Of a stretch of DNA of 64,000 nucleotides, positions 34,919 through 51,412 are shown in pieces. Source of the stretch: an uncultured Gammaproteobacteria bacterium (GTDB taxonomy: Bacteria; Pseudomonadota; Gammaproteobacteria; DRLM01); NCBI GenBank assembly GCA_963729605.1, contig CAVSNY010000002.1:1-64000 (forward strand), given 5' to 3'. The notes under the pieces were generated by a model. The model was not told where the DNA came from. It was given only the letters and a program-made list of their open reading frames with translations, and made no database searches. The translations under genes and the position numbers were made by a program. Every line of letters begins with the position of its first letter. Position 1 is the first letter of the stretch.

Positions 34919-37084
34919 TCAAGACACCGCCTGCAATTTGGCGTAGGCCAACACCAGCCACTTGCTGCCCGCGGCGGCGAAGTTGACCTGCACGCGCGCG
35001 CTGCTGCCCTGGCCTTCGTAATTGGTGACGACACCTTCGCCGAATGTGGCGTGCATCACGTGTTGTCCCAGCCGTAAACCGCCGGGTGGGTTTTCCGCCG
35101 CCGGCGCCGCGTAATTCGTTAAACCGGCCGGCGGTGAGATGCGCGCGTGCGACCGCACCTCGCGTATCAATTCCGCCGGAATCTCGCTCAAAAAACGCGA
35201 AGGACGCGGAAAGGTTTCACTGCCGTGCAGACGGCGGCTCTCGGCGTGGGTGAGATACAACTCGCGCTCGGCGCGGGTGATGCCGACGTAACATAAGCGT
35301 CGCTCTTCTTCGAGCCGGCCCGGTTCCTCGATCGACATCTGATGCGGAAATAAACCTTCTTCCACGCCGCAGATGAACACCAGGGGAAACTCCAGGCCTT
35401 TCGCCGAGTGCAGCGTCATCAACTGCACGCAGTCGTCCCATTGATTGGCTTGGCCTTCGCCCGCCTCCAACGCGGCGTGGGTGAGAAACGCGGAAAGCGG
35501 ATCGAGTTCGCTGTCCTCCGGCGCGGGGAATTGCCGCGCGGCGGTGACCAGCTCTTCCAGGTTTTCCACCCGCGCCTGACCGATCTCGCCCTTTTCCTTG
35601 CGGTAGTGGTCGAGCAGGCCGCTGTGATGAATGACGTGTTCAGTCTTGTCGCCCAGCTCCAATTGCGCGGTGTCGGCGGCGAGGCGTTCGATGAGATCGA
35701 CGAATATTTTTAGCGCCGAACTGGCGCGCCCCGTCAAATCGGTAGTGGCGAGCAGCATGCGGCAAGCACTGAACAGCGGGATCTGTTTTTGCCGCGCGAG
35801 ATCGCGCACCGTCGCCACCGTGCGTTCGCCGATGCCGCGGGTCGGCGTGTTCACCACCCGCTCGAACGAGGCGTCGTCGTCGCGGTTGGCGATGAGGCGG
35901 AGATAGGCGAGGGCGTCCTTGATTTCGGCGCGCTCGAAGAAACGCAGTCCGCCGTAAACGCGATAAGGCATGCCGACCGCCAGCAGCGCCTCTTCCAACA
36001 CCCGCGATTGCGCGTTGGAGCGATAAAGAATCGCCGCCTCGTCGCGGCGGTTGCCTTCCTCCGCCCAGCGCCGCAGACGTTCGACGATGAAACGCGCCTC
36101 GTCGAATTCGTTGAAGGCCGCGTAGAGCAGGATGGGCTCACCTTGTTCGCCGCGGGTCCACAGCTCCTTGCCGAGGCGGCCGCTGTTGTGACCGATCAGC
36201 GCGTTGGCCGCCTCGAGTATGGTGCGTGTCGAACGGTAATTTTCCTCGAGGCGCAACACCCGCGTGCCGGGAAAATCCTTGCTGAAACGCTGAATGTTTT
36301 CGATGCGCGCGCCGCGCCAGCCATAAATCGATTGATCGTCGTCGCCCACCGCGAACAGATAACGCGATCGCCCGCCAGCAATCGCAGCCAGGCGTATTGC
36401 AAGGTGTTGGTGTCCTGAAACTCATCGACCAGAATGTGCTGAAAGCGCTGGCGGTAGTGGGCGAGCAGCGCGGTGTTGTCGCGTAATAACTCGTGCGCGC
36501 GCAGCAGCAACTCGGCGAAATCCACCAGTCCGGCACGCCGGCAATTGTCCTCGTAAGCCTGATAAATGCGCAGCATCTGGGTCGTGAAGAGGTCGCCGCG
36601 GGCGTCGACGTGCTGCGGGCGCAGGCCCTCCTCCTTGCGGCCGTTGATGAACCACTGCGCCTGTTTGGGCGGCCACTGGGCCTCGTCGATCTCCAAGCTC
36701 TTCAGCAGGCGGCGGATCAACGCGGTATTGATCGTCGGAATCGAGGATTTGAAAGGTCTGCGGCAGATGGGCCTCGCGCCAGTGCGCGCGCAACAAACGG
36801 TGCGCGAGGCTGTGGAAGGTGCCCACCCACATGCCGCCCACCGGGATACCCAGCAGTTGTTCGGTGCGGCCGCGCATCTCGGCGGCGGCCTTGTTGGTGA
36901 AGGTCACCGCCAGCATGCCGTAGGGCGAGGCGCCCTCGACGCGGATCAGCCAGGCGATGCGGTGCACCAGCACGCGGGTCTTGCCGCTGCCGGCACCGGC
37001 GATCACCAGCACCGGCCCGGCCGGGCTGGTCACCGCGTCGCGCTGGGCATCGTTAAGGGGGTCGAGCAGATCGGAAACATCCAT
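34919..37084 (-). CDS. uvrD: DNA helicase II, interrupted by two frameshifts (near 36721 and 36362)
   Basis: AGAGSGKTR, AVTFTNKAA, VDEFQDTN, GDDDQSIYGWRGA, TLHSAKGLEF and EEERRL spread over three consecutive overlapping ORFs. Confidence 0.92.
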
Positions 37085-37177
37085 GGCGGGCATTTTAACA
37101 GATGCGGCGGGGGTGCCGGGGATGCGTTGAGTGTGAGGAGGAGAGGGTTGTTGGGCATTATCCCGCTTCAATCTTTT

Positions 37178-37250
37178 GAGTGGCAGGCCCGCATGCTGGG
37201 GGGGTGTGGGGGAGTGACGGAGCGATGCAGAAGCTTGCCCGATACCCAAT
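37178..37250 (+). other. Degenerate group II intron 3' end (D5/D6-like remnant)
   Basis: GGCCCGCATGCTGG..TGTGGGGGAG...TACCCAAT ending exactly at the stop codon of the opposite-strand gene. Confidence 0.4.
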
Positions 37251-38074: not shown

Positions 38075-40452
38075 TCACGGCACATTGGTCACCTGCACGA
38101 CGGCATTAGCCATAGTTATGTACAGCGTGGTGCCGGCTATCGAAACGCCAATTGGCAAATTCAATACGCCGGGTAACGCGCCTGGTACAAACCCTCTTGC
38201 GCCGGCTGTGCCTACAACAGTCGAGACGATCCCTGTTGGGGTGATCTTGCGGATGATGTGGTTGCCGGTATCCGCGACATATACATTACCAGCAGCATCG
38301 GTCGCGATGCCTTTTGGTCCGTTAAAGCTTGCTGCGCCTCCGATACCATCAACGTGCCCTACTACATGAGACGTGCCGGCCAGTGTCGTGACAACCCCTT
38401 CCGAGGTGATCTTACGGATGATGTGGTTGCCAGTGTCTGCAACATAAATATTCCCGTTAGCGTCGGTCGCGATGCCTACAGGAGAGACAAAACTTGCTGC
38501 CGATCCTGTTCCGTCCGCACCGTCACCCACGCAGGACAAATTAGGTCGCCAAGTAAAACCAGCCAAGGTGGTAACATTCCCAGCCGGAGTAATTTTGCGG
38601 ATGGTGCAATTGTAGGTATCCGCTACATAGATGTTGCGGTTAGGGTCTGCAGCAACACCCATGGGTGAGGAAAAACGTGCACTCGGGCCACTGCCATCGG
38701 CACTGCCTGGCCATGGCGGTGAAAAACCGGCAAGCGTCGTAACGTCCCCCGATGGGCTGATCTTGCGAATTGTGCTGTTTCCAGTGTCCGCGATATACAC
38801 ATAACCTGCATTGTCGGTCGTGACCCCACGGGGGGAAGAAAACAGTGCACCTGAAGCAGGGCCGTCGCTATTGCCATTTACCCCTGCCGCACCAGCCAGA
38901 GTTGTAACCGCGCCAGCCGGTGTGATCTTGCGGATCGTATGATTCCCGGTGTCCGCCACATAGATGTTACTGAGGCTATCGGTAGCAATGCCCGCAGGGC
39001 CCGTAAAACGCGCGGTCTCGCCTACACCGTCAGTAGTGCCAGACAAATCGGGGGCACCGGCTAGCGTAGTCGTCACACCAGCCGGCGTAATCTTGCGGAT
39101 AACATGACTGCCTCCATCCGCCACATAGACATTTCCATCGATATCAACTGCAACACCATACGGGCCTCTAAAACTCGCTGTTGCACCAACACCATCAGCG
39201 TAGCCAGCGACGCCGGCGGTACCTGCTAATGTCGTTACGATACCCTCTGAGGTTATTTTGCGAATAGTGTTGTTTCCAGTGTCCGCTACAAAGGCATTGC
39301 CATCGCGATCAATTGCAATACCTGTTGGATTTAGAAACCTCGCCGCTGCCCCAGTGCCATCGACATTTCCTCCGCCTATAGCTCCAGCCAGCGTGGTGAC
39401 AACCCCGGCCTGAGTAATTTTACGGATTTCGTTGTGGTAGACATCCGTGACATAAACATTACCAGCTGCGTCGGTAGCAACAGCGGACGGGATAAAAAAA
39501 GAAGCCGGTGAATGAAGATCGATGTAAGTGGTCCCCGCCAGTGTCGTGACTACTCCCTCTGGCGTGATTTTGCGGATATTATGGTTGCCGTAATCCGCGA
39601 CGTAAATGTTTCCATGAATGTCGGTAGCAATGTCTACTGGCGAATGAAAACTAGCGGCTGCGCCGATGCCATTAGCGCTACCAGTTATACCTGCGGTCCC
39701 CGCCAATGTGGTAACTACACCGAGTGAGGTGATCTTGCGAATGGTGTGGTTGCCCTGATCTGCCACATAGATGTTTCCGCTAGTGTCAGTCGCAATCCCC
39801 GCAGGAATTTCAAAACGCGCGGCGCCGCCAATTCCATCAGCACTACCCATCGCTCCTGCGGAGCCAGCCAATGTCGTGACGACCCCCGTCGGCGTAATCT
39901 TGCGGATAACATGATTTCCTCCATCCGCCACATAAATATTTCCATTTCCATCCGTGGCAACAGCGTGCGGAAGGTCAAATCGCGCTGCTGTGCCATTACC
40001 ATTGGTATTGCCTGCGCCACCCGGATTTCCCGCTAGCAGCGATAGCACTGGAAGCGTTACACAGGTCACGACTATATTTGTGACGTTCGCATCAGCTATG
40101 GCACCGGAGCCATTTGTTATGGTGCAGTTTTGACCCGTCGGCGATATACCAATGGCTACGCCGTATGCGGAGCCGGAACTCAAAGTCGTCGCAAATTGAA
40201 AAGGTCCATCGGCGTTTAGATTGAGCTCATCGTAGCCATTGTTGCGAAACGCGACCGTGCCCTCTAACCCGATATGGTACCGCCTACGGTATAGCTGGAA
40301 TTAGAACCAGCACCGCCGCCGCACGCCGCAAGCCCGAACAACGCAATCAGGATGAGAACTAAGAAACAGCAACTCGTGCGCTGTGACGCTCGCGCACGAG
40401 AGCCGCTGGCTCGGTAGAGAGCCTCGTCCAAGCACACGGGAATTGCATGCAT
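38075..40452 (-). CDS. NHL-repeat beta-propeller lipoprotein, frameshifted near 40266
   Basis: About 11 repeats of F..P.GIA.D..GNIYVADT.N..IRKIT..G.VTTLAG; lipobox LAAC-GGG in the upstream ORF joins if one base is added at TCGGGTTAGAG. Confidence 0.85.
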
Positions 40453-40620: not shown

Positions 40621-40659
40621 CTGTAGAAAACCCATTTTCGCATCTATACTGCTCGCTCA

Positions 40660-41111
40660 ACTGTCAGAAGAGCTTGAGCAGAAAGATGCTGGATCGGCAG
40701 ATCAAAAATCAGTGAGCTCAAGATGAGCGCATCAGACGCTGATGGCGCTCGAAGGTGTCGGCCCCATCAGCGCCAGCGCGCTAGTCTCAGCCATCGGTGA
40801 TGCTCGCCAGTTCAAGAGTGGCCGGGATCTCGCCGCCTGGTTGGGGCTGGTTCCCAGTCAACACTCCAGTGGTGGCAAGGAGCGATTGGGGGCGATCTCA
40901 AAGCGCGGCGACACATACCTGCGCACCTTGTTGATTCATGGAGCACGCGGTGATCAGCAGCTGCGAAAAGAAAGAGGATCTTAAGAGCCAATGGTTCAAA
41001 GGAATCATGGCGAGGCGCAACAAGAATATCGCCACGGTAGCGCTTGCCAATAAAAACGCCCGTGTTATCTGGGCGGTTCTCAGTCGCGGTGAAAATTATC
41101 AGCCGGCCTGA
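40660..41111 (+). pseudogene. IS110-family (IS1111 group) transposase, C-terminal fragment with a frameshift
   Basis: EGVGPISA, FKSGRDLAAWLGLVPSQHSSGGK, SKRGDTYLRTLLIHGAR, then shifted VALANKNARVIWA; RuvC-like DEDD domain absent. Confidence 0.9.
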
Positions 41112-41159
41112 GAGGGTGGGCGCATTGTAAGAAATAGGTTTTGCAGGAGAAGGAGCGTT

Positions 41160-41345
41160 CCACCACGATTGCAGAGTGAATTGTATTGATGACAACCGGT
41201 CGAACCGGCACGTGTGAAACCTGACTATTGCGTGGGCCCTCTGGAAACAAGGCCGCTAGGGCGATCAGCTACACGTGAGTGGATATTCATTATGGCTCTG
41301 GGTATAAGCACCCTATACAGAAGCCGGATATACGGAAGCAGTCGT
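41160..41345 (+). ncRNA. IS1111-type bridge RNA/seekRNA region
   Basis: Long downstream non-coding end with nested stems and internal loops matching the flanking target and the IS end; boundaries approximate. Confidence 0.7.
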
Positions 41346-41381
41346 ACTTGGGTTGTCAGAAAAACAGTTTGTTTGCAAAAC

Positions 41382-41399
41382 GGGAGGAGTCCATATACA
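41382..41399 (+). mobile_element. IS1111-group right end with sub-terminal inverted repeat
   Basis: GGGAGGAGTCCATATACA. Confidence 0.75.
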
Positions 41400-41513
41400 C
41401 AATAATCAAAGGGCATTGCGCCCTACGCGCTTAGAGTAACAAACAGAGAACAAGGCGCGGAATAGTGAGGGCATACGCCACGACTTACCTTTTATGTGTT
41501 CCCTAAGTGAGGG

Positions 41514-42623
41514 TTAGGCGATTGAAGTCAGCGCATAGCTGGTGCTTCGACCGCCTCCCGGTTCGCGCACGAGAATACCCCTACTGATGAGGTCGTTGAT
41601 GTCGCGCAAAGCGGTATCGGGCGAAGACTTTGTAAGCTGCGCCCATTTGGAAGACGTCATCTTGCCTTCAAATCCATCCAGCAGTCGATTGACAATTTTG
41701 CGCTGACGCTCATTAAGCGGATGATCTTTGAACGTCTCCCAAAACCGCGCCTTTTGAATGACGCCCGCAAGCGTCTGCTCCGCTCCTTCGATTGCGCGGT
41801 CAAGGCATTCCAAGAACCATTCCAGCCACGCGGTGATATCGAGAGCGCCCTTCTGCGTGGCTTCCAGAACGTCGTAATAGGCTTTGCGCTCAAGCCGGAT
41901 TTGCGCCGACATGCTGTAGAAGCGCTGCGGGCTTTGCTCGGACCGCGCCAACGCCATATCTGCAATGGCGCGCGCAATCCGCCCGTTTCCATCGTCAAAC
42001 GGGTGGATGGTGACAAACCATAAATGCGCTAGGGCGGCCTTGAGCACTGGATCGTGCGAGGTGTCTTCGCCGAACCATTTTAGGAAGGCCGCCACTTCTG
42101 ATTCAAGGCGAGACGCTTTTGGCGCTTCGTAATGCACACGCTCGCGCCCGATTGAGCCGGAGACGACCTGCATCGGACCTGAGCTATCGTCGCGCCACGC
42201 CCCGACGATGATTTTGGTCATGCCGCTGCGCCCGGTCGGGAACAGGGCGGCGTGCCATGCAAAGAGCCGTTCGTCCGTCAGCGGCGCTTGAAATTTCTGG
42301 GTGGCGTCAAGCATCATTTCCACGACGCCTTCGACGTTCCGGTCAGCTGGAGCAAGTGCGCCGATATCCATCCCGAGCCGTCGCGCGATGGACGACCGGA
42401 CTTGTTCCTTATCGAGTATCTCGCCTTCGATCTCGCTGGACTTGAGAACATCCTCCGTGAGGGTGGCGAGGACGGCCTCCGCGCGCAAATCGAATCCCAG
42501 TGCTTCCATTCGCCCAATCAGCCGCCCCTGCCGATGGCGAACTGGTGCAAGGCGCTGAGCCAGCGCCCCTTCGTCCCATCGGAAATTCGGCCAATCTTGC
42601 AATTCGTGGATATACGTCGGCAT
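41514..42623 (-). CDS. Fic family protein with an N-terminal DUF4172-like region and C-terminal winged helix
   Basis: HPFDDGNGRIAR, inhibitory-like SSEIEGE, YIHELQDWPNFRW start, GGGRSTSY end. Confidence 0.92.
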   Translation of the reverse strand: MPTYIHELQDWPNFRWDEGALAQRLAPVRHRQGRLIGRMEALGFDLRAEAVLATLTEDVLKSSEIEGEILDKEQVRSSIARRLGMDIGALAPADRNVEGVVEMMLDATQKFQAPLTDERLFAWHAALFPTGRSGMTKIIVGAWRDDSSGPMQVVSGSIGRERVHYEAPKASRLESEVAAFLKWFGEDTSHDPVLKAALAHLWFVTIHPFDDGNGRIARAIADMALARSEQSPQRFYSMSAQIRLERKAYYDVLEATQKGALDITAWLEWFLECLDRAIEGAEQTLAGVIQKARFWETFKDHPLNERQRKIVNRLLDGFEGKMTSSKWAQLTKSSPDTALRDINDLISRGILVREPGGGRSTSYALTSIA

Positions 42624-42721
42624 TCTCCGCACCTCTTGCGGAGATTATGGCTGATATTCACCGCAAGCCGCAAGGTTAATCTCCGCAAAATATGCGGAGA
42701 TTATGGCCAATATTCGCCGCA
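42624..42721. repeat. Two palindromic operator-like repeats with a 56-bp period
   Basis: TCTCCGCA-N5-TGCGGAGATTATGGC-N2-ATATTC(A/G)CCGCA at 42624 and 42680. Confidence 0.75.
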
Positions 42722-42989
42722 GAGGTAAGGTTTTTGGGTATTTGCGGGTCCACGGGCAAAACTGGCGACAGGCACTCCTACTTATCTTTGCCCCAAGAAA
42801 GGCTGCGCCAGCTATCGCAAATCCAGTCGCCGCACCGATCTCGAAGGGGCTTCGACGCTCTTATTGCGGGGATGCAGCGCTATAGTTCCACGCTGCCATA
42901 GCTCATCCTCGGATGATGTATCCTTCGAATTTAATAGAATTAACTGCAAGAACTTTTGCATTAACATCCGATCCGCATGTAAATGAAGG

Positions 42990-43976
42990 ATGAAAAAATT
43001 GACCGATAAAACTGGCGATGGACTGCTAGAGTCGGCCCCTCTTAGTGATGGGCCACCATTGGCGATAGTGCTGAATTTAAAAGGGGGGCACGACGATGGC
43101 GAGGAGCGTATCGCCCTCATTAGCCACCTGCTCGAAGAAGCAGGACGGCCACATCAGTTATTCACGCCAGACGATCCGACCCAATTGCCCGATAAAATCC
43201 GGCAAGCCGTGGCGTGGGCGTAACAACGCAAGGGTGCCTTGGTGGCTGCCGGCGGTGATGGCACCATTAACTCCGTGGCACATGCCGCGGTGCCCAACGG
43301 CTGTCCTCTAGGCGTTTTGCCGCAAGGTACGTTCAATTATTTTGGTCGGGCACACGGCATCCCGACCGATATCGAGCAAGCCATGCAAATTCTGTTGAAG
43401 GCGAGGCCGCGTCCCATACAAGTGGGTTTGCTGAACGATCGGATATTTTTGGTCAACGCGAGCTTAGGTTTATATCCGAAGCTGCTCGAGGACCGCGAGG
43501 AGTTCAAAAAACACTTGGGGCGCAGCCAATTTGCTGCGATGGTCGCGGCGTTTTGGACGATATTACGCTCGCCTAATGACTGGTTGATTGAATTGGAATC
43601 GGAAGGCAAGGCGGTGATCGCGCATACCCGCACGTTATTCGTTGGCAACAACCAACTGCAGTTGGAGCAAATCGGCATTCCTGAAGCCAGCGAGGTGAAC
43701 CGCGGCAAGCTGGCCGCGGTGATGGTAAAGCCGGCGGGGCGACTTGCGATGTTGGGGCTTACGCTGCGCGGCGCGCTTGGCCGGTTGGGCGACGCGGATC
43801 AAGTGCGGCATTTCGCCTTCACCAAACTCATCGTAAGACCGCGCATAGGTTCTCGAGTACGGCATATCCAAGTCGCTACCGACGGCGAGCTGCTACGGCT
43901 TACGACACCGTTGGTTTTTTCCGTGAGCCCTATCCCGCTGCAGTTGCTTGCGCCACCGGACTCAGGCTCGGCATGA
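42990..43976 (+). pseudogene. Diacylglycerol/lipid kinase (YegS-like) with an in-frame TAA at 43221
   Basis: IVLN..G, AAGGDGT, PQGTFNYF, FLVNASLG, VATDGE; both ORFs are in the same frame. Confidence 0.85.
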
Positions 43977-44770
43977 CAGTACTGTTGCAAATATCGGATC
44001 CGCACTTCGGGACCGAGCTGCCCGAAGTGCTGGCGGCCTTGAACCGCTGGGTAACCGAACAGCGTCCGGACGTTATGCTCTGGTCCGGAGACATCACCCA
44101 GCGAGCGCGCCGAGAGCAATTCGCCGCGGCCCGGCGTTTTGCCAATGCACTGGCGGTGCCGCACTTATTGGCGATTCCCGGCAATCACGACATACCCCTC
44201 TACAATATGGCGGCGCGTCTATTCCGGCCGTACCATAATTACATGCACAGTTTCGGAGAAGTATTGGAGCCCGAGTTCAATAGCGAAGAACTGCTGATCA
44301 TCGGGGTCAAGACCACGCGCCGTTGGCGGCACAAACACGGCGAAGTATCGCATGAGCAAATCGACCGCGTTGCGCAGCGCCTGCAACGCGCGCAGTTGCG
44401 GCAACTGCGGGTAGTGATGACGCACCAGCCCTTGCATGTGCTTACGGAACGAGAGATCAACAATCGTTTGCGCGGTGCGGACGCGGCGATAACCGCATGG
44501 GCCGAGGCGGGCGCCGACTTGGTGCTGGGGGGCCACATACACTTGCCTTACTGCCGCAAACTCGATATTGCTGCCCGGCCGCTATGGATCGTACAAGCCG
44601 GTACCGCTCTGTCTTCACGCGTGCGGAGCGGCATCCCCAATTCGGTTAACCTCATCCGCTACGAGCCTGCAATGACGCCTTTGCAATGCAATATTGAGCG
44701 CTGGGACTTCGATGCTACGGGGCAATGCTTCAGTCTCATTGAGCGCACCCAGGCCATGCTCGAACGTTAA
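43973..44770 (+). CDS. Metallophosphoesterase (CpdA/Icc-like)
   Basis: SDPHFG, SGDIT, PGNHD, THQP, GGHIH; ATGA overlap with the kinase gene. Confidence 0.92.
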   Translation: MTVLLQISDPHFGTELPEVLAALNRWVTEQRPDVMLWSGDITQRARREQFAAARRFANALAVPHLLAIPGNHDIPLYNMAARLFRPYHNYMHSFGEVLEPEFNSEELLIIGVKTTRRWRHKHGEVSHEQIDRVAQRLQRAQLRQLRVVMTHQPLHVLTEREINNRLRGADAAITAWAEAGADLVLGGHIHLPYCRKLDIAARPLWIVQAGTALSSRVRSGIPNSVNLIRYEPAMTPLQCNIERWDFDATGQCFSLIERTQAMLER

Positions 44771-44972
44771 CCCGGCATCTGCCAAGAAACCCCGCGATTA
44801 TCTTGGCGTGGCCTTTTGAGTGACGCTATGAGGCCTTACTTGGAATGGCGCACATAGGGGGAGTTTGTTCAAGCCAGATTTTGGCCGACTGGTGCATGAT
44901 TGTGAGAGACTTGCGCTCTGAAAATTAAAAAGTCCATTTCCCCGAAAGCCCGGCTCGAAGAGCGTGCCAAAA

Positions 44973-46610
44973 TTACAGAATGACGACGTTGGTGGGTTTT
45001 ATGCCATAAACAGACTCAAAAGAGCGCTCGGCGAAGGCCTGAATCTCGTCATCTGTCCCTTTTTGCGAAAGCCAGCGATAGGCATATTTGAACGGACCCG
45101 GCTGCGTGATCCACTGGCGCGTGAGATCAAAAATTACGTTATGCGCATAGAAATCATCGAACGCCTCTTTGATATCGCTCTCGCTGTGCCCGCTATGGAG
45201 CCTTGGATACACGCCGTCATCGTCTTCCTTATCGACGAACAATGCGCCGTGACGGTCAAAAAGCGTCGCGGCATCCTGTGAAACGCGCTGCCCGGCCATC
45301 CAGGCGCCCGGCCAGCAGAAGAACTCCGGGCGAGCAAACTTGTCGCGCATGAACGCAAGAAAATGGGCAAAAATGATTCTGACCGCTACATTGCGCTTCT
45401 CGAACCGGAATGCCGCGTGCTCGGACATCAGCGGGGAAAATTCCGGTAACTCGACCCAGCGAGAAAACTCTCCCGCGACTTCCAGCGGGGAGTGCTCGAT
45501 CATCGCACCACATAGTTTCCGGCTGACCGCGTCATATTCTTCGCGCGAGTATTCCCGGATGGCGTCCATGACTTCAGGGTGTTTGAAGCGGGCCAACCTG
45601 CATAGCCAAACAAAGCGCGCCCCCGGCTCGATATCCGTTATGAAGCTTGGATAATGCACGAGCGGAAATGGAAAACCCGATCCCGGATTAAGCGCCACAT
45701 CGCAGATCAGCAAAAACAGCCCGATGGTGGGGTGATCTATGGAAGGCGGTCGTTCAAGTTCCGTAAAGTGAAGAAAAACAGCAAACGCTTTTCCATAGAC
45801 GCCGTCGAACATCCCCATTTGCTCGGCGGTCTCCATGCCGAGCAAGCCGCCCGTTGCGAAATGAAGATATTGAAGCTGAGCCATGCGGGCCTGACCTTCG
45901 AATATTTCATACGCGCCGATCGGATAAAGCGAGATCGGTGAGCCGTAATAGTACCCTTCCTCTTCCGCCTCGCGGAGCTTGCGAAACGGCTCGCTCCACT
46001 CTTTGGGATGGGGAATGATGCTGAACGCACGGTCCGAGACCGAGGCGATCAGACTGCTGATGTTGCTATACGCAATGCTGTAGGCGTGGCCGAGATTTTC
46101 GAATTGCGGATTCTGCACGATATCGTTTGCCGAAAGCGGGTTAACAGTCAGGCCTCGAAATGCCTCCATGTCGAAATGATTGTTGATTATGATATTGACT
46201 AGGCCGCCCGGTGTTCCATAGCCGCCGCCCGGCAAAACGTCGGCCAGATTGCGGATAGACTTCTTGAACCCGACGCTGACGATAAGGTTCTTGAGATGAT
46301 CGTAATTGGCGTGCGCCTGCGCCGGATAGGTCATGCTTAGCATGAGGCCGTAGGTCGACCCGACATGCTGCCACCAATGAACCGTCTCGTGCAGAAACGT
46401 CGAGAACGCCTGAACGCCTTCGAGATCAATCATCCCGGAATTGACTATGCCGCTGGGCATAGACGTGAGCTTTCGGTGGACAGCTGGCGAGAGCCGCAGA
46501 ACAAACTGAAAGGTGTTGTAGAGCCCATGCCCTTTCAGCGTCGCGGCAAAGAGTCCCTGACTGGCAAGCGGGCTATAATCGTTGAGTAGCTCAGGTTGGG
46601 GAATCTGCAT
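44973..46610 (-). CDS. Hypothetical protein, putative HEXXH zinc metallopeptidase
   Basis: FLHETVHWWQH plus downstream IFEGQA (candidate third ligand); ATG 46610 after AGGGGA; no signal peptide. Confidence 0.75.
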   Translation of the reverse strand: MQIPQPELLNDYSPLASQGLFAATLKGHGLYNTFQFVLRLSPAVHRKLTSMPSGIVNSGMIDLEGVQAFSTFLHETVHWWQHVGSTYGLMLSMTYPAQAHANYDHLKNLIVSVGFKKSIRNLADVLPGGGYGTPGGLVNIIINNHFDMEAFRGLTVNPLSANDIVQNPQFENLGHAYSIAYSNISSLIASVSDRAFSIIPHPKEWSEPFRKLREAEEEGYYYGSPISLYPIGAYEIFEGQARMAQLQYLHFATGGLLGMETAEQMGMFDGVYGKAFAVFLHFTELERPPSIDHPTIGLFLLICDVALNPGSGFPFPLVHYPSFITDIEPGARFVWLCRLARFKHPEVMDAIREYSREEYDAVSRKLCGAMIEHSPLEVAGEFSRWVELPEFSPLMSEHAAFRFEKRNVAVRIIFAHFLAFMRDKFARPEFFCWPGAWMAGQRVSQDAATLFDRHGALFVDKEDDDGVYPRLHSGHSESDIKEAFDDFYAHNVIFDLTRQWITQPGPFKYAYRWLSQKGTDDEIQAFAERSFESVYGIKPTNVVIL

Positions 46611-47283
46611 CGGTCTTCCCCTGCTTGGTTTTCGCCGCGCTCGCTTTTGGAAACGGGAGAAAGGAATGGCGAACATGAATGGTGTTGCCGCTGCCAGGCC
46701 GTACATGGTCGGTCGAAAAACGTTCGATTGTACTGACCGTCGCGCCGGGAGATGGCGATCCTACCATGCCGACATCAACTTTGTTGGCTTCGATAGCTGC
46801 TTTGACTCGCGACAATGCGAAGTCCGTATCCCCGTCAAGGACATAACCAAGCATGCAACCGACTGGCAGGCCGTCTGCGTATTGCTCAGTGATAAATCGC
46901 TTTAGGCCCTGGTTGACATAGGGCGTGGCGAGGCTTTGCCGTGCCCCATTGTAGGGGACATTTAGGCGTTTGCACTCATAGGCGAGATAGCGCGTGCAGC
47001 CCTGATCGAGAAGAACCGCCAGATCGATTTGCCCCTTGCTGAACGCGAGTCCCTCGGGTGTAAAGCCCTCCGGCTCAAACTGATATGCAAGATGGTGGAA
47101 TATCTGTCTCGCCTCGGAATCTTTGACCAACACGCTTCTGAGGTTGAACGTAATGGCGTCCTCTTCCGGGCTTGGGGGTAGTACGGCGAGACATTCCGGC
47201 CACAACGCGTATATACGCGCCAGTAGTCGGTCATCGATCGAAATGAAGTGCTCTGCCCAATGGCTCGGATCCCCAACCACCAT
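46591..47283 (-). CDS. Hypothetical protein, putative PD-(D/E)xK nuclease
   Basis: EDAIT...GQIDL...AYECKRL; TAATG overlap with the methyltransferase stop. Confidence 0.72.
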   Translation of the reverse strand: MVVGDPSHWAEHFISIDDRLLARIYALWPECLAVLPPSPEEDAITFNLRSVLVKDSEARQIFHHLAYQFEPEGFTPEGLAFSKGQIDLAVLLDQGCTRYLAYECKRLNVPYNGARQSLATPYVNQGLKRFITEQYADGLPVGCMLGYVLDGDTDFALSRVKAAIEANKVDVGMVGSPSPGATVSTIERFSTDHVRPGSGNTIHVRHSFLPFPKASAAKTKQGKTDADSPT

Positions 47284-50200
47284 TACTGAGCGCTGCCCCG
47301 CTTCTTGGGTGAGCCCAAATAATCCTGAAGGTCGAGCGCGATAGCGTGCGCGTCTGCAAGCGCCGATGAGCGTAGCCAAAACCGCTTTTGCATTGGTTTG
47401 ACGATATAAAGATCATCACCCTCAAAAATCCTGAAGTCCGGCATGACCTGGAAGTTTCCAGGCAGCGGCTGGTGAATGCTCTCAAACAACTTCGCCAGCA
47501 CGTCGCGAACGGCCGAGTTATTGACCTCTCGATAAGCAGTGATCGCTTTTTTCTTTCGAAGCGACAACCGGACCACTGCAAGATCAGCGTTATGCGCTTC
47601 CAAACTCACGTCGATGGCGCGCTCCTCGCGCAGCCATCCGGTCAATGCGTGTACCAAGGCATCGGCATACGCTATCCGCTCTGTCGCAGAAGATGTTTTC
47701 CAGATCGCGGGCAAGCTGCCCTGATGTGGCTGAACGGCAGGAAGAATAAACTCGACCTCGTCTTCGATGAGCGTAACTTCATCCGGAGAAAGACAGAAAT
47801 ACTCGTAAGCGCACGCATCAACCTTGGCGAAAACCTCGGAGCCACCGCCTTGAAGAGCGAACTCACTTTGCGCGGCGTTTAGCGCTAAGTCGACAATGCC
47901 CACCAAAGCCTTTGCTGCTTTGCGTGCTCGCTCAGGTTCTGGAAGATCGGATGGCTCCGGAAATGGCAGCCGCATCAACTCGGCTTGCTGGACCTCTGGA
48001 CGATCCGAACCGAGCGAAGCCGTGCCATGAAACGCAAACCAGATCGCTACCTTGCTGTTAAGCAGTGCAGCCAAAATCTTTGCTCGGCGCTCGCATCCCT
48101 GCGGAACCACGATTGCCTGAATAATGTGCTGGAAGGTAAGCGGCTGCTCGACATAGCTGGCACGCAATCGCTTCGACACGACGCTCACGCCGCGAGGTAC
48201 AAGAACTCGCGGACCTTTTTCAAACCCTCTTTCGAAGCCTTTTCTCCGTACGCGGGAGGAATGCCAGGGAGTGAGTCCGGCGACACCTTGAGCCAACGGC
48301 TGAAACTGCGCGATCGGAAGATCGGGCTGCTTAGATACGTAGTCGCTCATGTGATACGAGCTGCCACTGGACGCATTGTATGGCTGGTAACCTTGCCCGA
48401 TCATCCAGCCATCAGCAGCATCTGTCGCCCTGCGGCTCTGGCTTCCGAAGTCGGTGATCAGATCGCCGAGTGTCGGCAGCCGTGACAGGTATGCGAAGAG
48501 CTTCGCGTCGGGCTCTGACATCCACAGGCGGCGCTTGAATATCAAAGGGTCCGATAGCGCCGCCTTGGAGGTAATGAAGCTCTTGTCTGCGCTGCTGAGT
48601 GTAATCAGCCGCTTCACCTTTAGGTTCAGATCAGCTTTTGGCGCCCAATATTCGAAGCGGTACAACGCCTGCCCCGGCGCTGCGTTCCCGAAAATTATCA
48701 ATGTTGCGGGCCGGATTGCGCCGTCGAAGAGCTGAAAACGCAAGTCGGCAAAATTGATGACCCGGCGAATCCGGGCTTTCTCAATCAGCCTGTTCCGCGC
48801 GTCAACGGACGTGTCTGCATGATTATGCAGAAAGCCCATTGCCGGAAGAAGGAAGGCGACCACACCGTCCACGCTAAGATGTTCGATCGATTTCCATGTA
48901 AACGCCCAAGCGTCTTCTTTTCCTGGCATCGGGAGATGGCGCTGCGCGCACCATTGCATCGATGAGCGATTAGGGCCTCGGCGGCTCGTCCAGGGCGGAT
49001 TGCCTATCACCACGTCAAAACGCGTCCTATCCGGCTCGACACTGAAGAAGTCCTGACACCGCAGGGTCTTGCCCCATAACTCAGGCAGGACTTTTCCGCG
49101 CTTTATGAGCTGGCGGATATCGGGCGGACTGACCTGTTCGAGCAAAGCGATGTAAAGAGAGAAGACAGCAACCCGCACGGCGCTGCCATTCAAATCCCAT
49201 CCGTTCAGGCGGGCCAGAATATTCTTGAGGCTGTCCCAACGGATGGTGCGCGCTTTGTGCGTTTCGCGCCAGTGTTCACAAAGGCGCTGAAACGAACGAA
49301 CGAGAAAAACACCGGAGCCACACGCCGGGTCTAGAAACTCTCCCTTGTCTCTGACGCCACCGGGTAGCGTTTCCCAAACTTGAGAGACGACGGTATCCGC
49401 CAAAAACATTGGCGTGTAGTACGCTCCAGTCTCTCTTCTTTCGGCCTCTCGTTCACCGAGGAACCGATCATACACGGCACTGATGAGCTCGATGGGGATA
49501 TGCTTGAAATTGTAGCCCCAAAACCGGAGCTGGCCAGCAGCCATTTCCTCTTGTCCTAGCCGGAAGCGCTCTAAAACGGCCAGGTGCTCGCGGGAAACGC
49601 GCGGCGGATGTGCATTCGGTTCAAACGAGCACGGCGCAACGAAGAGGTCGCCATTGAAATCCTGCCTCAAGGCATCGAAAAGTCGCTTGAGCGCGGATAC
49701 GCTTCCGGAGAGAAGCAATGCTGAAAAGCTTTCGACGCCTACGCCAGCCGCGTCTTTGAAGTATTCTTTGCCGATGATCTCCCGGTCTTCCAGATAGGCA
49801 ATGAACATCGCTTGTATAAGCAATGCCTGCGCGGCATCTGATGAAAGCTTAGCCTCGCACAAGAGGCCATGAGCGCTGGTCAGATTTTCAAGGAGAACTT
49901 GATCGACGCGCTCCTTGGGTTTGAAAAACTCGGCATGCTCTTCCCAGAACCTGCCGGATTCAGCACCATAGATCATGTTCTTGAGCGCCAAGGCGTCGGC
50001 GGTCGCGCTCAGCGTCTTCACAAGGCAGCGCCGTTCAAACTCGTCTCCGGGATTTGAATAGGGCGTGCAAGAAAGAGAGAATGCGCGAACGGTGTCGCTC
50101 GTGATAACGAGTAGCAGGCTGGCGAGACCCTGATTCCAAAGTGCGGCATGCAGACTGATAATCTGATTCCGGTCGTACTGCTCAAGATTTGCGATGACGA

Positions 50201-50390
50201 TCGTGGGCACGCCTTGGACGCAGAAGACGGCTGATGCGCCCAGCCCCTCCAGTGTCGCGCGGATCGCGCCTGCGTGTGGGCTGTTTCGAACCGTCTCCAC
50301 GTTTTCATAAAGTTCCGGCGCGTCCCGGTCAGTGAGATCGAGGCGCTTCTTCCAGATGTCTTCTAGTCTGCGTGAGCGAATGGTGGTCAT
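47283..50390 (-). CDS. Large N6-adenine DNA methyltransferase (gamma class, Type IIG/HsdM-like) with a fused C-terminal specificity region
   Basis: ISAVYDRFL, GAYYTP, motif I FLDPACGSGVFL, motif IV VIGNPPW, later ALLNSK. Confidence 0.92.
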   Translation of the reverse strand: MTTIRSRRLEDIWKKRLDLTDRDAPELYENVETVRNSPHAGAIRATLEGLGASAVFCVQGVPTIVIANLEQYDRNQIISLHAALWNQGLASLLLVITSDTVRAFSLSCTPYSNPGDEFERRCLVKTLSATADALALKNMIYGAESGRFWEEHAEFFKPKERVDQVLLENLTSAHGLLCEAKLSSDAAQALLIQAMFIAYLEDREIIGKEYFKDAAGVGVESFSALLLSGSVSALKRLFDALRQDFNGDLFVAPCSFEPNAHPPRVSREHLAVLERFRLGQEEMAAGQLRFWGYNFKHIPIELISAVYDRFLGEREAERRETGAYYTPMFLADTVVSQVWETLPGGVRDKGEFLDPACGSGVFLVRSFQRLCEHWRETHKARTIRWDSLKNILARLNGWDLNGSAVRVAVFSLYIALLEQVSPPDIRQLIKRGKVLPELWGKTLRCQDFFSVEPDRTRFDVVIGNPPWTSRRGPNRSSMQWCAQRHLPMPGKEDAWAFTWKSIEHLSVDGVVAFLLPAMGFLHNHADTSVDARNRLIEKARIRRVINFADLRFQLFDGAIRPATLIIFGNAAPGQALYRFEYWAPKADLNLKVKRLITLSSADKSFITSKAALSDPLIFKRRLWMSEPDAKLFAYLSRLPTLGDLITDFGSQSRRATDAADGWMIGQGYQPYNASSGSSYHMSDYVSKQPDLPIAQFQPLAQGVAGLTPWHSSRVRRKGFERGFEKGPRVLVPRGVSVVSKRLRASYVEQPLTFQHIIQAIVVPQGCERRAKILAALLNSKVAIWFAFHGTASLGSDRPEVQQAELMRLPFPEPSDLPEPERARKAAKALVGIVDLALNAAQSEFALQGGGSEVFAKVDACAYEYFCLSPDEVTLIEDEVEFILPAVQPHQGSLPAIWKTSSATERIAYADALVHALTGWLREERAIDVSLEAHNADLAVVRLSLRKKKAITAYREVNNSAVRDVLAKLFESIHQPLPGNFQVMPDFRIFEGDDLYIVKPMQKRFWLRSSALADAHAIALDLQDYLGSPKKRGSAQ

Positions 50391-50851
50391 CGTCCACCCC
50401 TCTTGAGCGAACGCGCGCTGCGCTGACGGGGCGGCGTGGTCCTAAGAGGCACATTCGCCTGTCCATTGAGGAGATCAGATTGAAGCAACTGGATGAGCGG
50501 CTCCAGCGCACACACGACGATCAGATCAGCGTCCGGCAACCGGGAATCGCATACAGCCACGCAGGAAGCTTGTTGCAGGTCGATGACGAAATGTTTGCCG
50601 CGAAGCCCTTTCCAATCGGAGCTATTGCAGACCTGAAAAATCGCCGGAGCTATATTAGAAAGGTGTCCGATTCGGACCCCGATTGTATCAGTAAGTCTTC
50701 TCAGAGCCGCTGAGGCGAGAACGTCACCCGGCGAAAAACTCGGCGCGTGGCCACGTCCGTTTGCAAATGCGGGAACCACCCGCTTCCAATGGCGAAATGC
50801 CTCTTTGGAAAGCCCCACTGTGTCCCGTAACTGACCTGGCGTGTAAAACAA
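50387..50851 (-). CDS. Small protein with an N-terminal MerR-like HTH
   Basis: YTPGQLRDTVGLSKEAFRHWKR; ATGA overlap with the methyltransferase; TTG start. Confidence 0.7.
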   Translation of the reverse strand: MFYTPGQLRDTVGLSKEAFRHWKRVVPAFANGRGHAPSFSPGDVLASAALRRLTDTIGVRIGHLSNIAPAIFQVCNSSDWKGLRGKHFVIDLQQASCVAVCDSRLPDADLIVVCALEPLIQLLQSDLLNGQANVPLRTTPPRQRSARSLKRGGR

Positions 50852-50959
50852 GTTGCCTGCACCTTGTTTGAGTGTTGTTGACCCCCAACTATGAATCAGG
50901 GGCGGTTAACAGGTCAATCACAAGCTCTTTTTTGTTCAGGGGCGCGGGATAAGTAGGGT

Positions 50960-51341
50960 TCCAAAGGGCGCAACGAGATCGAGACACAAATCGAAACCCT
51001 TCTGGATTGCATCATGGAGGGCTAGAGCGAAACCCTTTTCGCCAGCTATGAGTGGCGGATCGAAAAGCGTGAACGCGAAAAGCTGCTTCTGAATGAAAAA
51101 CTCAGCGCTCATGCCAAGCCACGCCCAAGACCATCGCAAGAGTTCGAACCCGCGCTGGGATCACTCAAAAACCCAATGAGTCTGTGGCGTTCGCACGATC
51201 TCGCTCGCAAGCAAGCGGTGGTGAAGATGCCGTTGCCGAGCGTCCGGCGTACAAAAACAAAATCGGTGTTCGAACCCCAATTTATGCCAGTCCTGTCAAT
51301 GCACTAGCTGCAATCTTAGACGGGAAAAAGCAAAATGGCGC
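50960..51341 (+). pseudogene. Large serine recombinase C-terminal remnant
   Basis: Degenerate AYEWRIEKREREKLLLNEKL..FEPAL..LKNP..LW....KQAVVKM..ERPAY...GVRTP, resembling the tail of tRNA-targeting recombinases (recognised from memory). Confidence 0.6.
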
Positions 51342-51412
51342 GCCCGGCGGGATTCGAACCCACGACCTTTGGCTTCGGAGGCCAACACTCTATCCAGCTG
51401 AGCTACGGGCGC
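51336..51412 (-). tRNA. tRNA-Arg(CCG)
   Basis: 77-nt cloverleaf GCGCCCGTAGCTCAGCTGGATAGAG...CTCCGAA...GGTTCGAATCC...GCGCCA. Confidence 0.98.

What the first reader, a model, noticed from the sequence alone, without database searches (positions are those of the whole stretch)
44973..50851. Candidate undescribed defence operon: HTH + m6A methyltransferase + small PD-(D/E)xK nuclease + HEXXH metallopeptidase
Seen: four same-strand genes joined by ATGA, TAATG and 20-nt overlaps, forming essentially the whole cargo of a tRNA-integrated unit. The 1035-aa methyltransferase has motifs I and IV but no obvious N-terminal nuclease motif. The 230-aa partner has ID...ECK, and the 545-aa cytoplasmic protein has HETVH plus EGQA. 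No HsdR helicase or HsdS gene is present. Known: Type IIG enzymes fuse nuclease and methyltransferase; the HEXXH peptidase Lit causes abortive infection; PrrC guards a Type I RM system. Inference: a split IIG-like RM module with a controller and a protease 'guard' effector. I do not recognise this architecture as a named system.
Basis: partly seen in the sequence, partly recalled or inferred. Interest (0 to 1): 0.85.

Follow-up and report, generated by a model that had tools for sequence, protein, structure and literature searches.

The report
Split restriction enzyme with swappable specificity
This is a mobile, unnamed anti-phage-type cassette in which a large DNA methyltransferase appears to choose the target sequence for a separate small nuclease, while the fourth gene, a putative zinc peptidase, rides along in only one branch of the family.

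Summary
The four genes, overlaps and motifs are real. The system, however, is three genes: a MerR-like regulator (A), an MmeI/BpuSI-like adenine methyltransferase whose N-terminal nuclease-like domain lacks the catalytic acid (B; 0 of 119 homologues), and a PD-(D/E)xK nuclease (C) that follows B in 79 of 80 loci. Two residue pairs in B's target-recognition domain flip together repeatedly while C stays up to 98.6% identical. This is the MmeI specificity-switch pattern and implies that B steers C. The promoter carries a conserved palindrome (26 of 39) and an alphaproteobacterial LexA box (18 of 39; controls 2 and 6 of 417). The HEXXH gene (D) is mostly a stand-alone defence-island gene (adjacent in 4 of 84 C loci), but one lineage captured it once and co-inherited it, so a guard role is neither supported nor excluded. 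The cassette sits inside a serine-recombinase relic at tRNA-Arg and is not the whole cargo. The scan noted this cassette before on other DNA (e1-5211935, e1-1357880, e1-3916031); the switch pairs, promoter motifs and D lineage were not in those notes as shown. No activity was tested.

The parts
50387..50851 (-). Gene A: MerR-like winged HTH plus a small alpha/beta domain; probable autoregulator; optional
   Evidence: 4 of 20 aligned homologues hit Pfam MerR_1 (best E 4.9e-5); profile hits PDB 7xn2 at E 2.6e-4 and, more weakly, MerR regulators; annotated MerR family in 2 of 8 distant plasmid loci; intact in 52 of 76 loci, partial in 8, not found in 16
47283..50390 (-). Gene B: gamma-class N6-adenine methyltransferase: degenerate nuclease-like N-domain (about 40-130), helical connector (160-300), MTase (300-570), TaqI-like target-recognition domain (about 650-810), extra conserved C-domain (about 895-1025)
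   Evidence: PADLOC PDLC03623 full length, E 4.6e-80; AF2 pLDDT 80.4; VIA Z 25.4 to MmeI, 22.4 to DrdV, 20.2 to BpuSI; TRD aligns to M.BseCI; switch pairs 669/715 and 755/801
46591..47283 (-). Gene C: stand-alone PD-(D/E)xK-type nuclease (E41, D87, E103, K105), translationally coupled to B
   Evidence: Motif residues invariant (E41 at least 90% in the wider set); nearest named Atlas clusters are MunI- and XhoI-type endonucleases at 0.76 and 0.75, a lead only; no Pfam, PADLOC or PDB sequence match; fold not modelled
44973..46610 (-). Gene D: HExxH...E putative gluzincin-like metalloprotein of no named family; defence-island gene bound to the cassette in this lineage only
   Evidence: H74, E75, H78, E238 invariant; AF2 pLDDT 88.6, helical; best fold matches Z 4.6-3.7 include M1, M49, M30 and M4 peptidases over residues 22-350, tied with unrelated helical proteins; 1144 homologues; trees
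50874..50937 (-). Cassette promoter: degenerate alphaproteobacterial LexA-type box (50937-50924), -35 TTGACC (50917-50912), -10 CATAGT (50893-50888), half-degenerate GGGG-N4-CCCC palindrome (50886-50874)
   Evidence: Promoter scan (chance level by itself, 3 found vs 2.9 expected); conserved in homologous loci; enrichment against control upstream regions; host lexA has a CTGT-N8-ACAG box instead
50965..51335 (+). 3' relic of a large serine recombinase gene running into the tRNA 3' end
   Evidence: 87% DNA identity to the recombinase 3' part and tRNA flank in congener G001; stops and frameshifts in the window
42743..42873 (+). Internal relic (zinc-ribbon part) of the same serine recombinase; left boundary of the 8.1-kb insertion
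   Evidence: 89% identity to G001 C40:2996-3126
51336..51412 (-). tRNA-Arg(CCG), the integration hotspot
   Evidence: ARAGORN; different cargo between uvrD and this tRNA in congeners G001 and G002
42990..44770 (+). Other cargo of the same insertion: DAGK-like gene with an in-frame stop, and a metallophosphoesterase; convergent with the cassette and not part of it
   Evidence: Pfam; in-frame stop; not among recurrent neighbours in homologous loci

Best explanation
A-B-C is a mobile two-protein version of a Type IIG/IIL restriction-modification enzyme. B binds a short site through its TaqI-like target-recognition domain and methylates an adenine, marking host DNA (fold and motifs shown; activity inferred). 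Its own nuclease-like domain is catalytically dead (shown by sequence). C, made in step with B by translational coupling, supplies cutting and has little or no sequence specificity of its own. It is recruited to or licensed by B on unmethylated sites, so changing one residue pair in B retargets methylation and cleavage together (covariation shown; recruitment inferred). A represses the shared promoter through the GGGG-N4-CCCC palindrome, and in alphaproteobacterial hosts LexA adds DNA-damage control (motif conservation shown; binding inferred). In this host the LexA box is foreign and probably unread. D is an independent single-gene defence candidate that was captured once behind C in the lineage to which this window belongs and has been co-inherited since, with losses on both sides; it is co-expressed but not required.
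For: B directly precedes C in 79 of 80 C-anchored genome loci, and the 80th is cut by the contig end. A C-like gene follows B in 8 of 8 plasmid loci at 22-45% identity and in 6 of 7 B loci from a 400-genome phylum sample. No E or D at the predicted ExK column in 119 of 119 diverse B proteins. Whole-chain fold match to MmeI, DrdV and BpuSI. In 60 distinct intact B+C loci, 669/715 is QR (49) or KH (11) with no other pair, and 755/801 is HQ (28), DK (23) or other (9). Positions 755 and 801 are the two most homoplasic of 233 biallelic columns (18 and 13 changes, median 4), and independent-pair tests give 8:0 for each pair, p 0.008. The best C column tracks the 755/801 switch at phi 0.47, and C proteins 96-98.6% identical serve different B states. 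Paired TRD residues set specificity in the MmeI family (PMC6007267, passages). Promoter motifs: LexA-type box 18 of 39 vs 6 of 417 control regions; palindrome 26 of 39 vs 2 of 417; GTTC-N7-GTTC is the alphaproteobacterial LexA motif (PMC8565304, passage). Gabija lies within the fetched flanks of 20 of 80 C loci and conjugation genes of 15 of 80. D: adjacent in 4 of 84 C loci; clade-limited in both trees; C-D distances correlate (rho 0.78, n 14).
Against: No methylation, cleavage, binding or phage data. C's fold was not modelled, and it matches no nuclease family by sequence. B's N-domain is assigned as nuclease-like from secondary-structure order and one loose superposition (BpuSI, rmsd 9.5); profile comparison with C found nothing. 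The switch pairs could be compensating structural contacts or recombined blocks, not base-reading residues; no target sites are known. One C column reaches phi 0.65 with the 669 switch. One distant B locus (L193) has no C. DNA-damage induction is unexpected for a classical restriction enzyme. The LexA box was not found in 7 distant loci checked.
Confidence: 0.6

Rival explanations
1. B is a methylation-reading sensor, as PglX is in BREX, and C is a non-specific nuclease released to kill or arrest the cell (abortive infection or DNA-damage-linked suicide) instead of cutting next to the site.
For: B also matches PglX in fold (Z 21.1); PglX homologues were formerly listed as Type IIG in REBASE (PMC12707154, passage), so the PADLOC label is not proof of IIG chemistry; a LexA-type box fits a damage-triggered response; C lacks signs of its own specificity.
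Against: No ATPase, PglZ or other signalling gene recurs near the cassette; strict 1:1 translational coupling of B and C suits a stoichiometric enzyme.
Confidence: 0.17
2. In this lineage the operon is a true four-gene system: D is a zinc peptidase that guards or backs up the RM module (PrrC/Lit logic) or processes one of its proteins.
For: D-bearing C genes form one clade (SH-aLRT 99; 15 with D, 2 without; 0 of the other 73 scored rows have D), cassette-bound D genes form one clade (97; 14 bound, 5 elsewhere, 1 unknown), distances correlate, and C-D junctions overlap or abut. D often sits directly behind other defence genes (13 of 32 loci scanned).
Against: Losses on both sides inside that clade (L002, L003 lack D; L081, L086-L089 have D with other neighbours); 60 of 87 D loci have no C upstream; D found in only 1 of 20 genomes carrying A-B-C alone; no likeness to Lit; co-inheritance is expected of any linked passenger.
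Confidence: 0.12
3. The cassette is mainly an addiction or exclusion module of conjugative elements and plasmids (post-segregational killing, protection of the element after SOS-triggered excision), with phage defence secondary.
For: Conjugation genes near 15 of 80 loci; 26 plasmid records hold a B homologue, 14 predicted conjugative; LexA-type box; insertion in a recombinase relic here.
Against: Frequent Gabija and other defence neighbours; repeated specificity switching is what an arms race with phage would give (inference). Not exclusive of the best explanation.
Confidence: 0.08
4. An ordinary Type IIP pair: B is just a long methyltransferase and C an independent sequence-specific endonuclease.
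For: Separate genes; B's core resembles stand-alone gamma-class MTases CamA and M.BseCI; nearest named Atlas clusters for C are Type II endonucleases (weak).
Against: B switches putative base-reading pairs while C differs by 3 to 6 residues that are not shared between comparisons, which would leave an independent endonuclease unprotected; B keeps IIG-type N- and C-terminal domains conserved down to about 27% identity.
Confidence: 0.05

Closest known systems
Type IIG/IIL RM enzymes (MmeI 5hr4, DrdV 7lo5, BpuSI 3s1s; PADLOC REase_MTase_IIG model PDLC03623)
   Same: N-domain, helical connector, gamma-class MTase and TRD in one chain; paired TRD residues that vary among close homologues; full-length PADLOC match
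   Different: Catalytic acid absent from the N-domain in 119 of 119; separate coupled nuclease gene; extra conserved C-terminal domain; MerR-like regulator and LexA-type box
PglX/BrxX of BREX
   Same: Large MmeI-like MTase with no nuclease activity of its own that sets specificity for partners (PMC11341690, passages; Z 21.1)
   Different: No BrxC ATPase, PglZ or BrxL nearby; partner is one small nuclease; PglX has a helical N-terminal bundle where B has an alpha/beta domain
Type IIP pairs with TaqI-like MTases (M.BseCI, M.TaqI; orphan CamA) and C-protein control
   Same: Separate MTase and nuclease genes, TaqI-like TRD, small regulator first in the operon
   Different: MTase about twice as long; nuclease does not co-vary with the TRD; regulator is MerR-like, whereas C proteins are XRE-type (recalled)
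Lit (peptidase U49) and PrrC as RM-linked back-up effectors
   Same: D has HExxH and lies in defence islands; PrrC sits inside a Type IC locus (PMC12707154, passage)
   Different: D shows no detectable likeness to Lit (hhalign probability 0.9%), is 545 aa against 297, and is usually not RM-linked

Membership tests
Type IIG/IIL RM | Gamma-class N6-MTase motifs I and IV followed by a TRD in one chain | tested here: met
Type IIG/IIL RM | Active PD-(D/E)xK nuclease in the same polypeptide | tested here: not met
   0 of 119 with E/D at the ExK column; D53 and K67 kept in 38 of 119 each
Type IIG/IIL RM | Specificity set by co-varying residue pairs in the TRD | tested here: inconclusive
   Two coupled, homoplasic pairs found; no target sites known to tie them to bases
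Type IIG/IIL RM | Cleavage at a fixed distance from an asymmetric site; one-strand methylation | not testable with these tools
   needs biochemistry or methylome data
Type IIP RM | Endonuclease with its own specificity matched to the MTase | tested here: not met
   Indirect: no C column tracks the 755/801 switch (best phi 0.47), and near-identical C proteins pair with different B states
Type I RM | HsdR helicase-nuclease and separate HsdS in the operon | tested here: not met
   None in the window region; no recurrent neighbour of that kind in 80 loci
BREX / BREX-related | BrxC-type ATPase and PglZ next to the MTase | tested here: not met
   B far below NCBIfam PglX cut-offs
PD-(D/E)xK nuclease (gene C) | Conserved E...D...(E/D)xK catalytic residues | tested here: met
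PD-(D/E)xK nuclease (gene C) | Restriction-endonuclease-like fold | not tested
Gluzincin metallopeptidases (gene D) | HExxH helix plus a distal conserved Glu on a second helix | tested here: met
   H74/E75/H78 on helix 63-83, E238 on helix 233-252; HExxH in 86 of 86 locus copies; ligand geometry not measured
Gluzincin metallopeptidases (gene D) | Zincin fold | tested here: inconclusive
   Foldseek no match; VIA best Z 4.6, rmsd 4.5, 138 aligned, to an M1 peptidase, tied with GPCRs
Lit / peptidase U49 | Sequence homology to Lit | tested here: not met
   no Pfam U49 hit in 48 members
RM guard (PrrC-like) | Effector consistently encoded within the RM locus | tested here: not met
   4 of 84 C loci overall; bound only in one clade
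Named defence systems (PADLOC 2.0.0) | All core genes match the models of one system | tested here: not met
   Only B matches; A, C, D do not. DefenseFinder and REBASE were not available

The most novel reading that the evidence does not exclude
A widespread, unnamed class of restriction system in which a nuclease-dead IIG-like methyltransferase acts as a reprogrammable guide for a separate small nuclease, with a readable two-pair specificity code, under MerR-type autoregulation and, in Alphaproteobacteria, SOS control; in the window's lineage a new zinc-peptidase family has been grafted on as a back-up effector.
Probability: 0.3. Interest if true: 0.78.

Novelty: new variant of a known kind. 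Interest (0 to 1): 0.55.

Why it matters
B-family genes occur in about 2% of a 400-genome phylum sample (7 of 400) and on plasmids from Alphaproteobacteria to Bacillota, yet the nuclease matches no Pfam or PADLOC model, so PADLOC's label of a complete Type IIG enzyme probably misdescribes them. If B steers C, this is a natural two-part programmable nuclease whose specificity code can be tested at once with existing allele pairs that differ in B but hardly in C. It would also be an evolutionary link between fused IIG/IIL enzymes and PglX-type systems, where the methyltransferase only sets specificity. LexA control of such a cassette would be unusual. D defines a large unannotated HExxH family in defence islands that merits its own phage test.

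Tried and rejected
Complex prediction of C with two ranges of B: verdict 'no answer'; not used for or against binding. Search for longer, fused forms of D: none, weak evidence. Pfam, NCBIfam, PADLOC and PDB sequence scans for A, C and D as single proteins: no family. Foldseek of the D model: no match. Profile comparisons among B's N-domain, B's C-domain and C: nothing, so a duplication origin of the C-domain is unsupported. Direct-repeat att site or tyrosine integrase at the tRNA: not found. D vs Lit: no likeness; the PF10463 genome search rang in no control and is uninformative. D in the 400-genome phylum sample: 0 of 400 besides this genome. Prophage link: 5 viral contigs with D at 36-39% and 2 with C; none of the 5 has C upstream. 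Sequencing runs: no RNA holder listed. A REBASE enzyme name recalled from memory gave no paper. Literature searches for this architecture found no description; these cover only the held open library, and no supplementary tables were searched. Partial correlations of C distance with B domains did not single out one domain and ignore shared ancestry. The reading 'D is a random hitchhiker' was dropped after the trees.
Full report
Observation. The four ORFs, their junctions (ATGA, TAATG, 20-nt overlap) and the quoted motifs are as described. I call them A (154 aa), B (1035 aa), C (230 aa) and D (545 aa). As single proteins only B is named by any library: Pfam N6_Mtase and Eco57I and PADLOC REase_MTase_IIG model PDLC03623 over residues 12-1027, E 4.6e-80. 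A, C and D match nothing in Pfam, PADLOC or NCBIfam.

Setting. The genes end a low-GC island of about 37.1-51.3 kb between uvrD and tRNA-Arg(CCG). No att repeat or tyrosine integrase is present. Congener G001 carries a frameshifted large serine-recombinase gene running into this tRNA. The window keeps two relics of it (42743-42873 and 50965 to about 51335), with 8.1 kb between them: a DAGK-like gene with an in-frame stop, a metallophosphoesterase, and D-C-B-A. Congener G003 has A and the start of B at the same site (93%, contig ends in B); G002 has other cargo. Contigs from three other studies cover most of the cassette in several pieces; one spans 44080-50410. So the tRNA link is real, but the four genes are not the whole cargo.

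What travels together. I fetched the best 80 of 138 C loci from genomes and the best 80 of 290 D loci from metagenomes. B directly precedes C in 79 of 80, the last being cut by the contig end. In 72 loci with intact B, C's estimated start lay on the last base of B's stop in 64 and within 17 nt in the rest. I fetched 8 of 26 plasmid hits (22-45% identity); all 8 have a C-like gene next. In 400 genomes of the phylum, 7 have B, 6 of those have C next, and none has D. A is MerR-like and is intact in 52 of 76 loci, partial in 8 and not found in 16. Gabija lies in the flanks of 20 of 80 C loci and conjugation genes in 15.

Gene D. D follows C in 4 of 84 C loci (75 no, 5 too short), and C precedes D in 4 of 87 D loci (60 no, 23 too short). 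Of 20 chosen genomes with A-B-C and no adjacent D, 1 has D elsewhere; the positive control was found. For 32 D loci I scanned upstream genes, picked from 71 candidates by dropping short ones and duplicates. Thirteen have a clear PADLOC hit (pAgo, Type I, Type ISP, Gabija, Ppl, CapP, MADS8-like and others), and I discount 2 domain-level hits; no background rate was measured. Yet the bound form is a lineage. C and D distances correlate (rho 0.78, p 1e-4, n 14). The D tree used 43 rows at 50% identity or more; broken and distant copies were left out. The inferred pairs are biased towards the query. D has invariant HExxH and E238, a confident helical model, only weak peptidase fold matches and no likeness to Lit. 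Peptidase activity is inferred.

Gene B. The model (pLDDT 80.4) matches MmeI (Z 25.4, rmsd 6.1, 584 aligned), DrdV (22.4), PglX (21.1) and BpuSI (20.2, rmsd 9.5, from model residue 55 and chain residue 14). The N-domain has the helix-strand-strand-helix-strand-strand order of IIG nuclease domains (order recalled). In 119 full-length diverse proteins (118 plus B) the predicted ExK column never holds E or D, while D53 and K67 survive in 38 each. A C-terminal domain with a conserved KP-R-W motif follows the TRD; its fold was not tested separately.

The specificity signal. In 60 distinct intact B+C loci (65 before removing duplicates), positions 669/715 are QR (49) or KH (11) and nothing else; 755/801 are HQ (28), DK (23) or other (9). 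On a tree built without the TRD, 755 and 801 change 18 and 13 times, ranks 1 and 2 of 233 biallelic columns (median 4). The two pairs are the strongest of 3003 column pairs, and independent-pair tests give 8 to 0 for each (p 0.008). The window has QR and HQ. Three of the four positions lie in the stretch that aligns to the M.BseCI TRD; that these loops contact DNA is recalled. In the MmeI family, such residue pairs specify single base pairs (PMC6007267, passages). C does not follow: best phi 0.47 for 755/801 and 0.65 for 669, and loci whose C proteins differ at 3 to 6 positions carry different B states. I infer that C takes its target from B. This is indirect; compensation or block recombination could also couple the columns.

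Regulation. Upstream of A, 39 distinct regions (from 52) share a sigma-70-like promoter, a GGGG-N4-CCCC palindrome (26 exact, 34 with one mismatch; control 2 and 17 of 417) and GAAC-N7-G(A/T)AC (18 exact, 31 with one mismatch; control 6 and 57 of 417). GTTC-N7-GTTC is the alphaproteobacterial LexA motif (PMC8565304, one passage); the GTAC variant is recalled. The box was absent from 7 distant loci checked. This host's lexA has CTGT-N8-ACAG, and the window's box is degenerate (N6, one mismatch; N7 in G003). The one-base difference may be an assembly slip, since uvrD in the same window also shows single-base indels against congeners. The pattern suggests an alphaproteobacterial origin with SOS control lost on transfer (inference).

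Mechanism. Shown: gene coupling, fold, loss of the catalytic acid, conserved nuclease residues in C, TRD switches uncoupled from C, promoter motifs, lineage-limited D. Inferred: methylation by B, B-directed cutting by C, repression by A, LexA control, defence function, any role of D. I put the B-steered two-protein RM reading at 0.6; the rivals are listed separately.

Comparison with the known. It works like a Type IIG/IIL enzyme but fails the defining test of a fused active nuclease. It resembles PglX in setting specificity for a partner (PMC11341690, passages) but lacks BREX genes. PglX was itself once listed as IIG (PMC12707154, passages). Passages of PMC12839542 on inactive REase domains concern helicases, not this cassette. 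Seven searches of the held library found no description (other papers seen as listings only). Supplementary tables of large defence screens, REBASE and DefenseFinder were not checked and may list it. Earlier notes of this scan give the same split-RM reading on other genomes; I had stated mine before seeing them, and they are not independent evidence.

Verdict. New variant of a known kind; interest 0.55. The four-gene guard system is not the general unit. The three-gene core, with a testable specificity code and probable SOS control, is the stronger lead.

Noticed in passing
window 34919-37249 (-): uvrD is split over several frames; single-base indels against congeners G001 and G002 near 37088, 36721 and 36363: assembly errors or decay.
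   Followed up: partly
window 41514-42721: SoFic-type Fic gene (DUF4172-Fic-HTH, PADLOC SoFic E 5.5e-44) with two copies of a TCTCCGCA-N5-TGCGGAGA-like palindrome just upstream (42624-42721): probable autoregulatory operators.
   Followed up: no
window 40648-41422: Transposase-like remnant with a 95% copy at C3:368507-369298; family (IS110-like) judged by eye from the translation only.
   Followed up: no
window 38075-40183 (-): 702-aa NHL-repeat protein with 165-nt repeat spacing in the low-GC island.
   Followed up: no
L087:9635-10762, also L083, L091, L004: A DUF3800 / PADLOC PDC-S51 gene follows D in one sub-branch, with or without the A-B-C cassette.
   Followed up: partly
L020, L027, L035, L040, L041, L045, L050: Gabija follows C directly on the same strand in several alphaproteobacterial loci, occupying the slot that D takes in the window.
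   Followed up: partly
L005-L017, L032, L044, L062-L066, L075: Gene A is decayed or missing in many of these metagenome-assembled genomes while B and C mostly stay intact.
   Followed up: partly
L129:7902-11350: D lies convergent to a distant B/C pair and downstream of a TrwC relaxase: an independent meeting of the two modules.
   Followed up: no
L193:3713-5035: A distant B homologue is followed by a 440-aa unrelated ORF instead of C; not scanned against families.
   Followed up: no
L161:6509-7219: A C homologue is annotated in RefSeq as 'Fis family transcriptional regulator', probably a mis-annotation; a sul2 gene and an IS lie next to the cassette on that plasmid.
   Followed up: no
L179:2060-3684 (G001): Serine-recombinase reading frame runs antisense through the tRNA-Arg 3' end.
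   Followed up: partly
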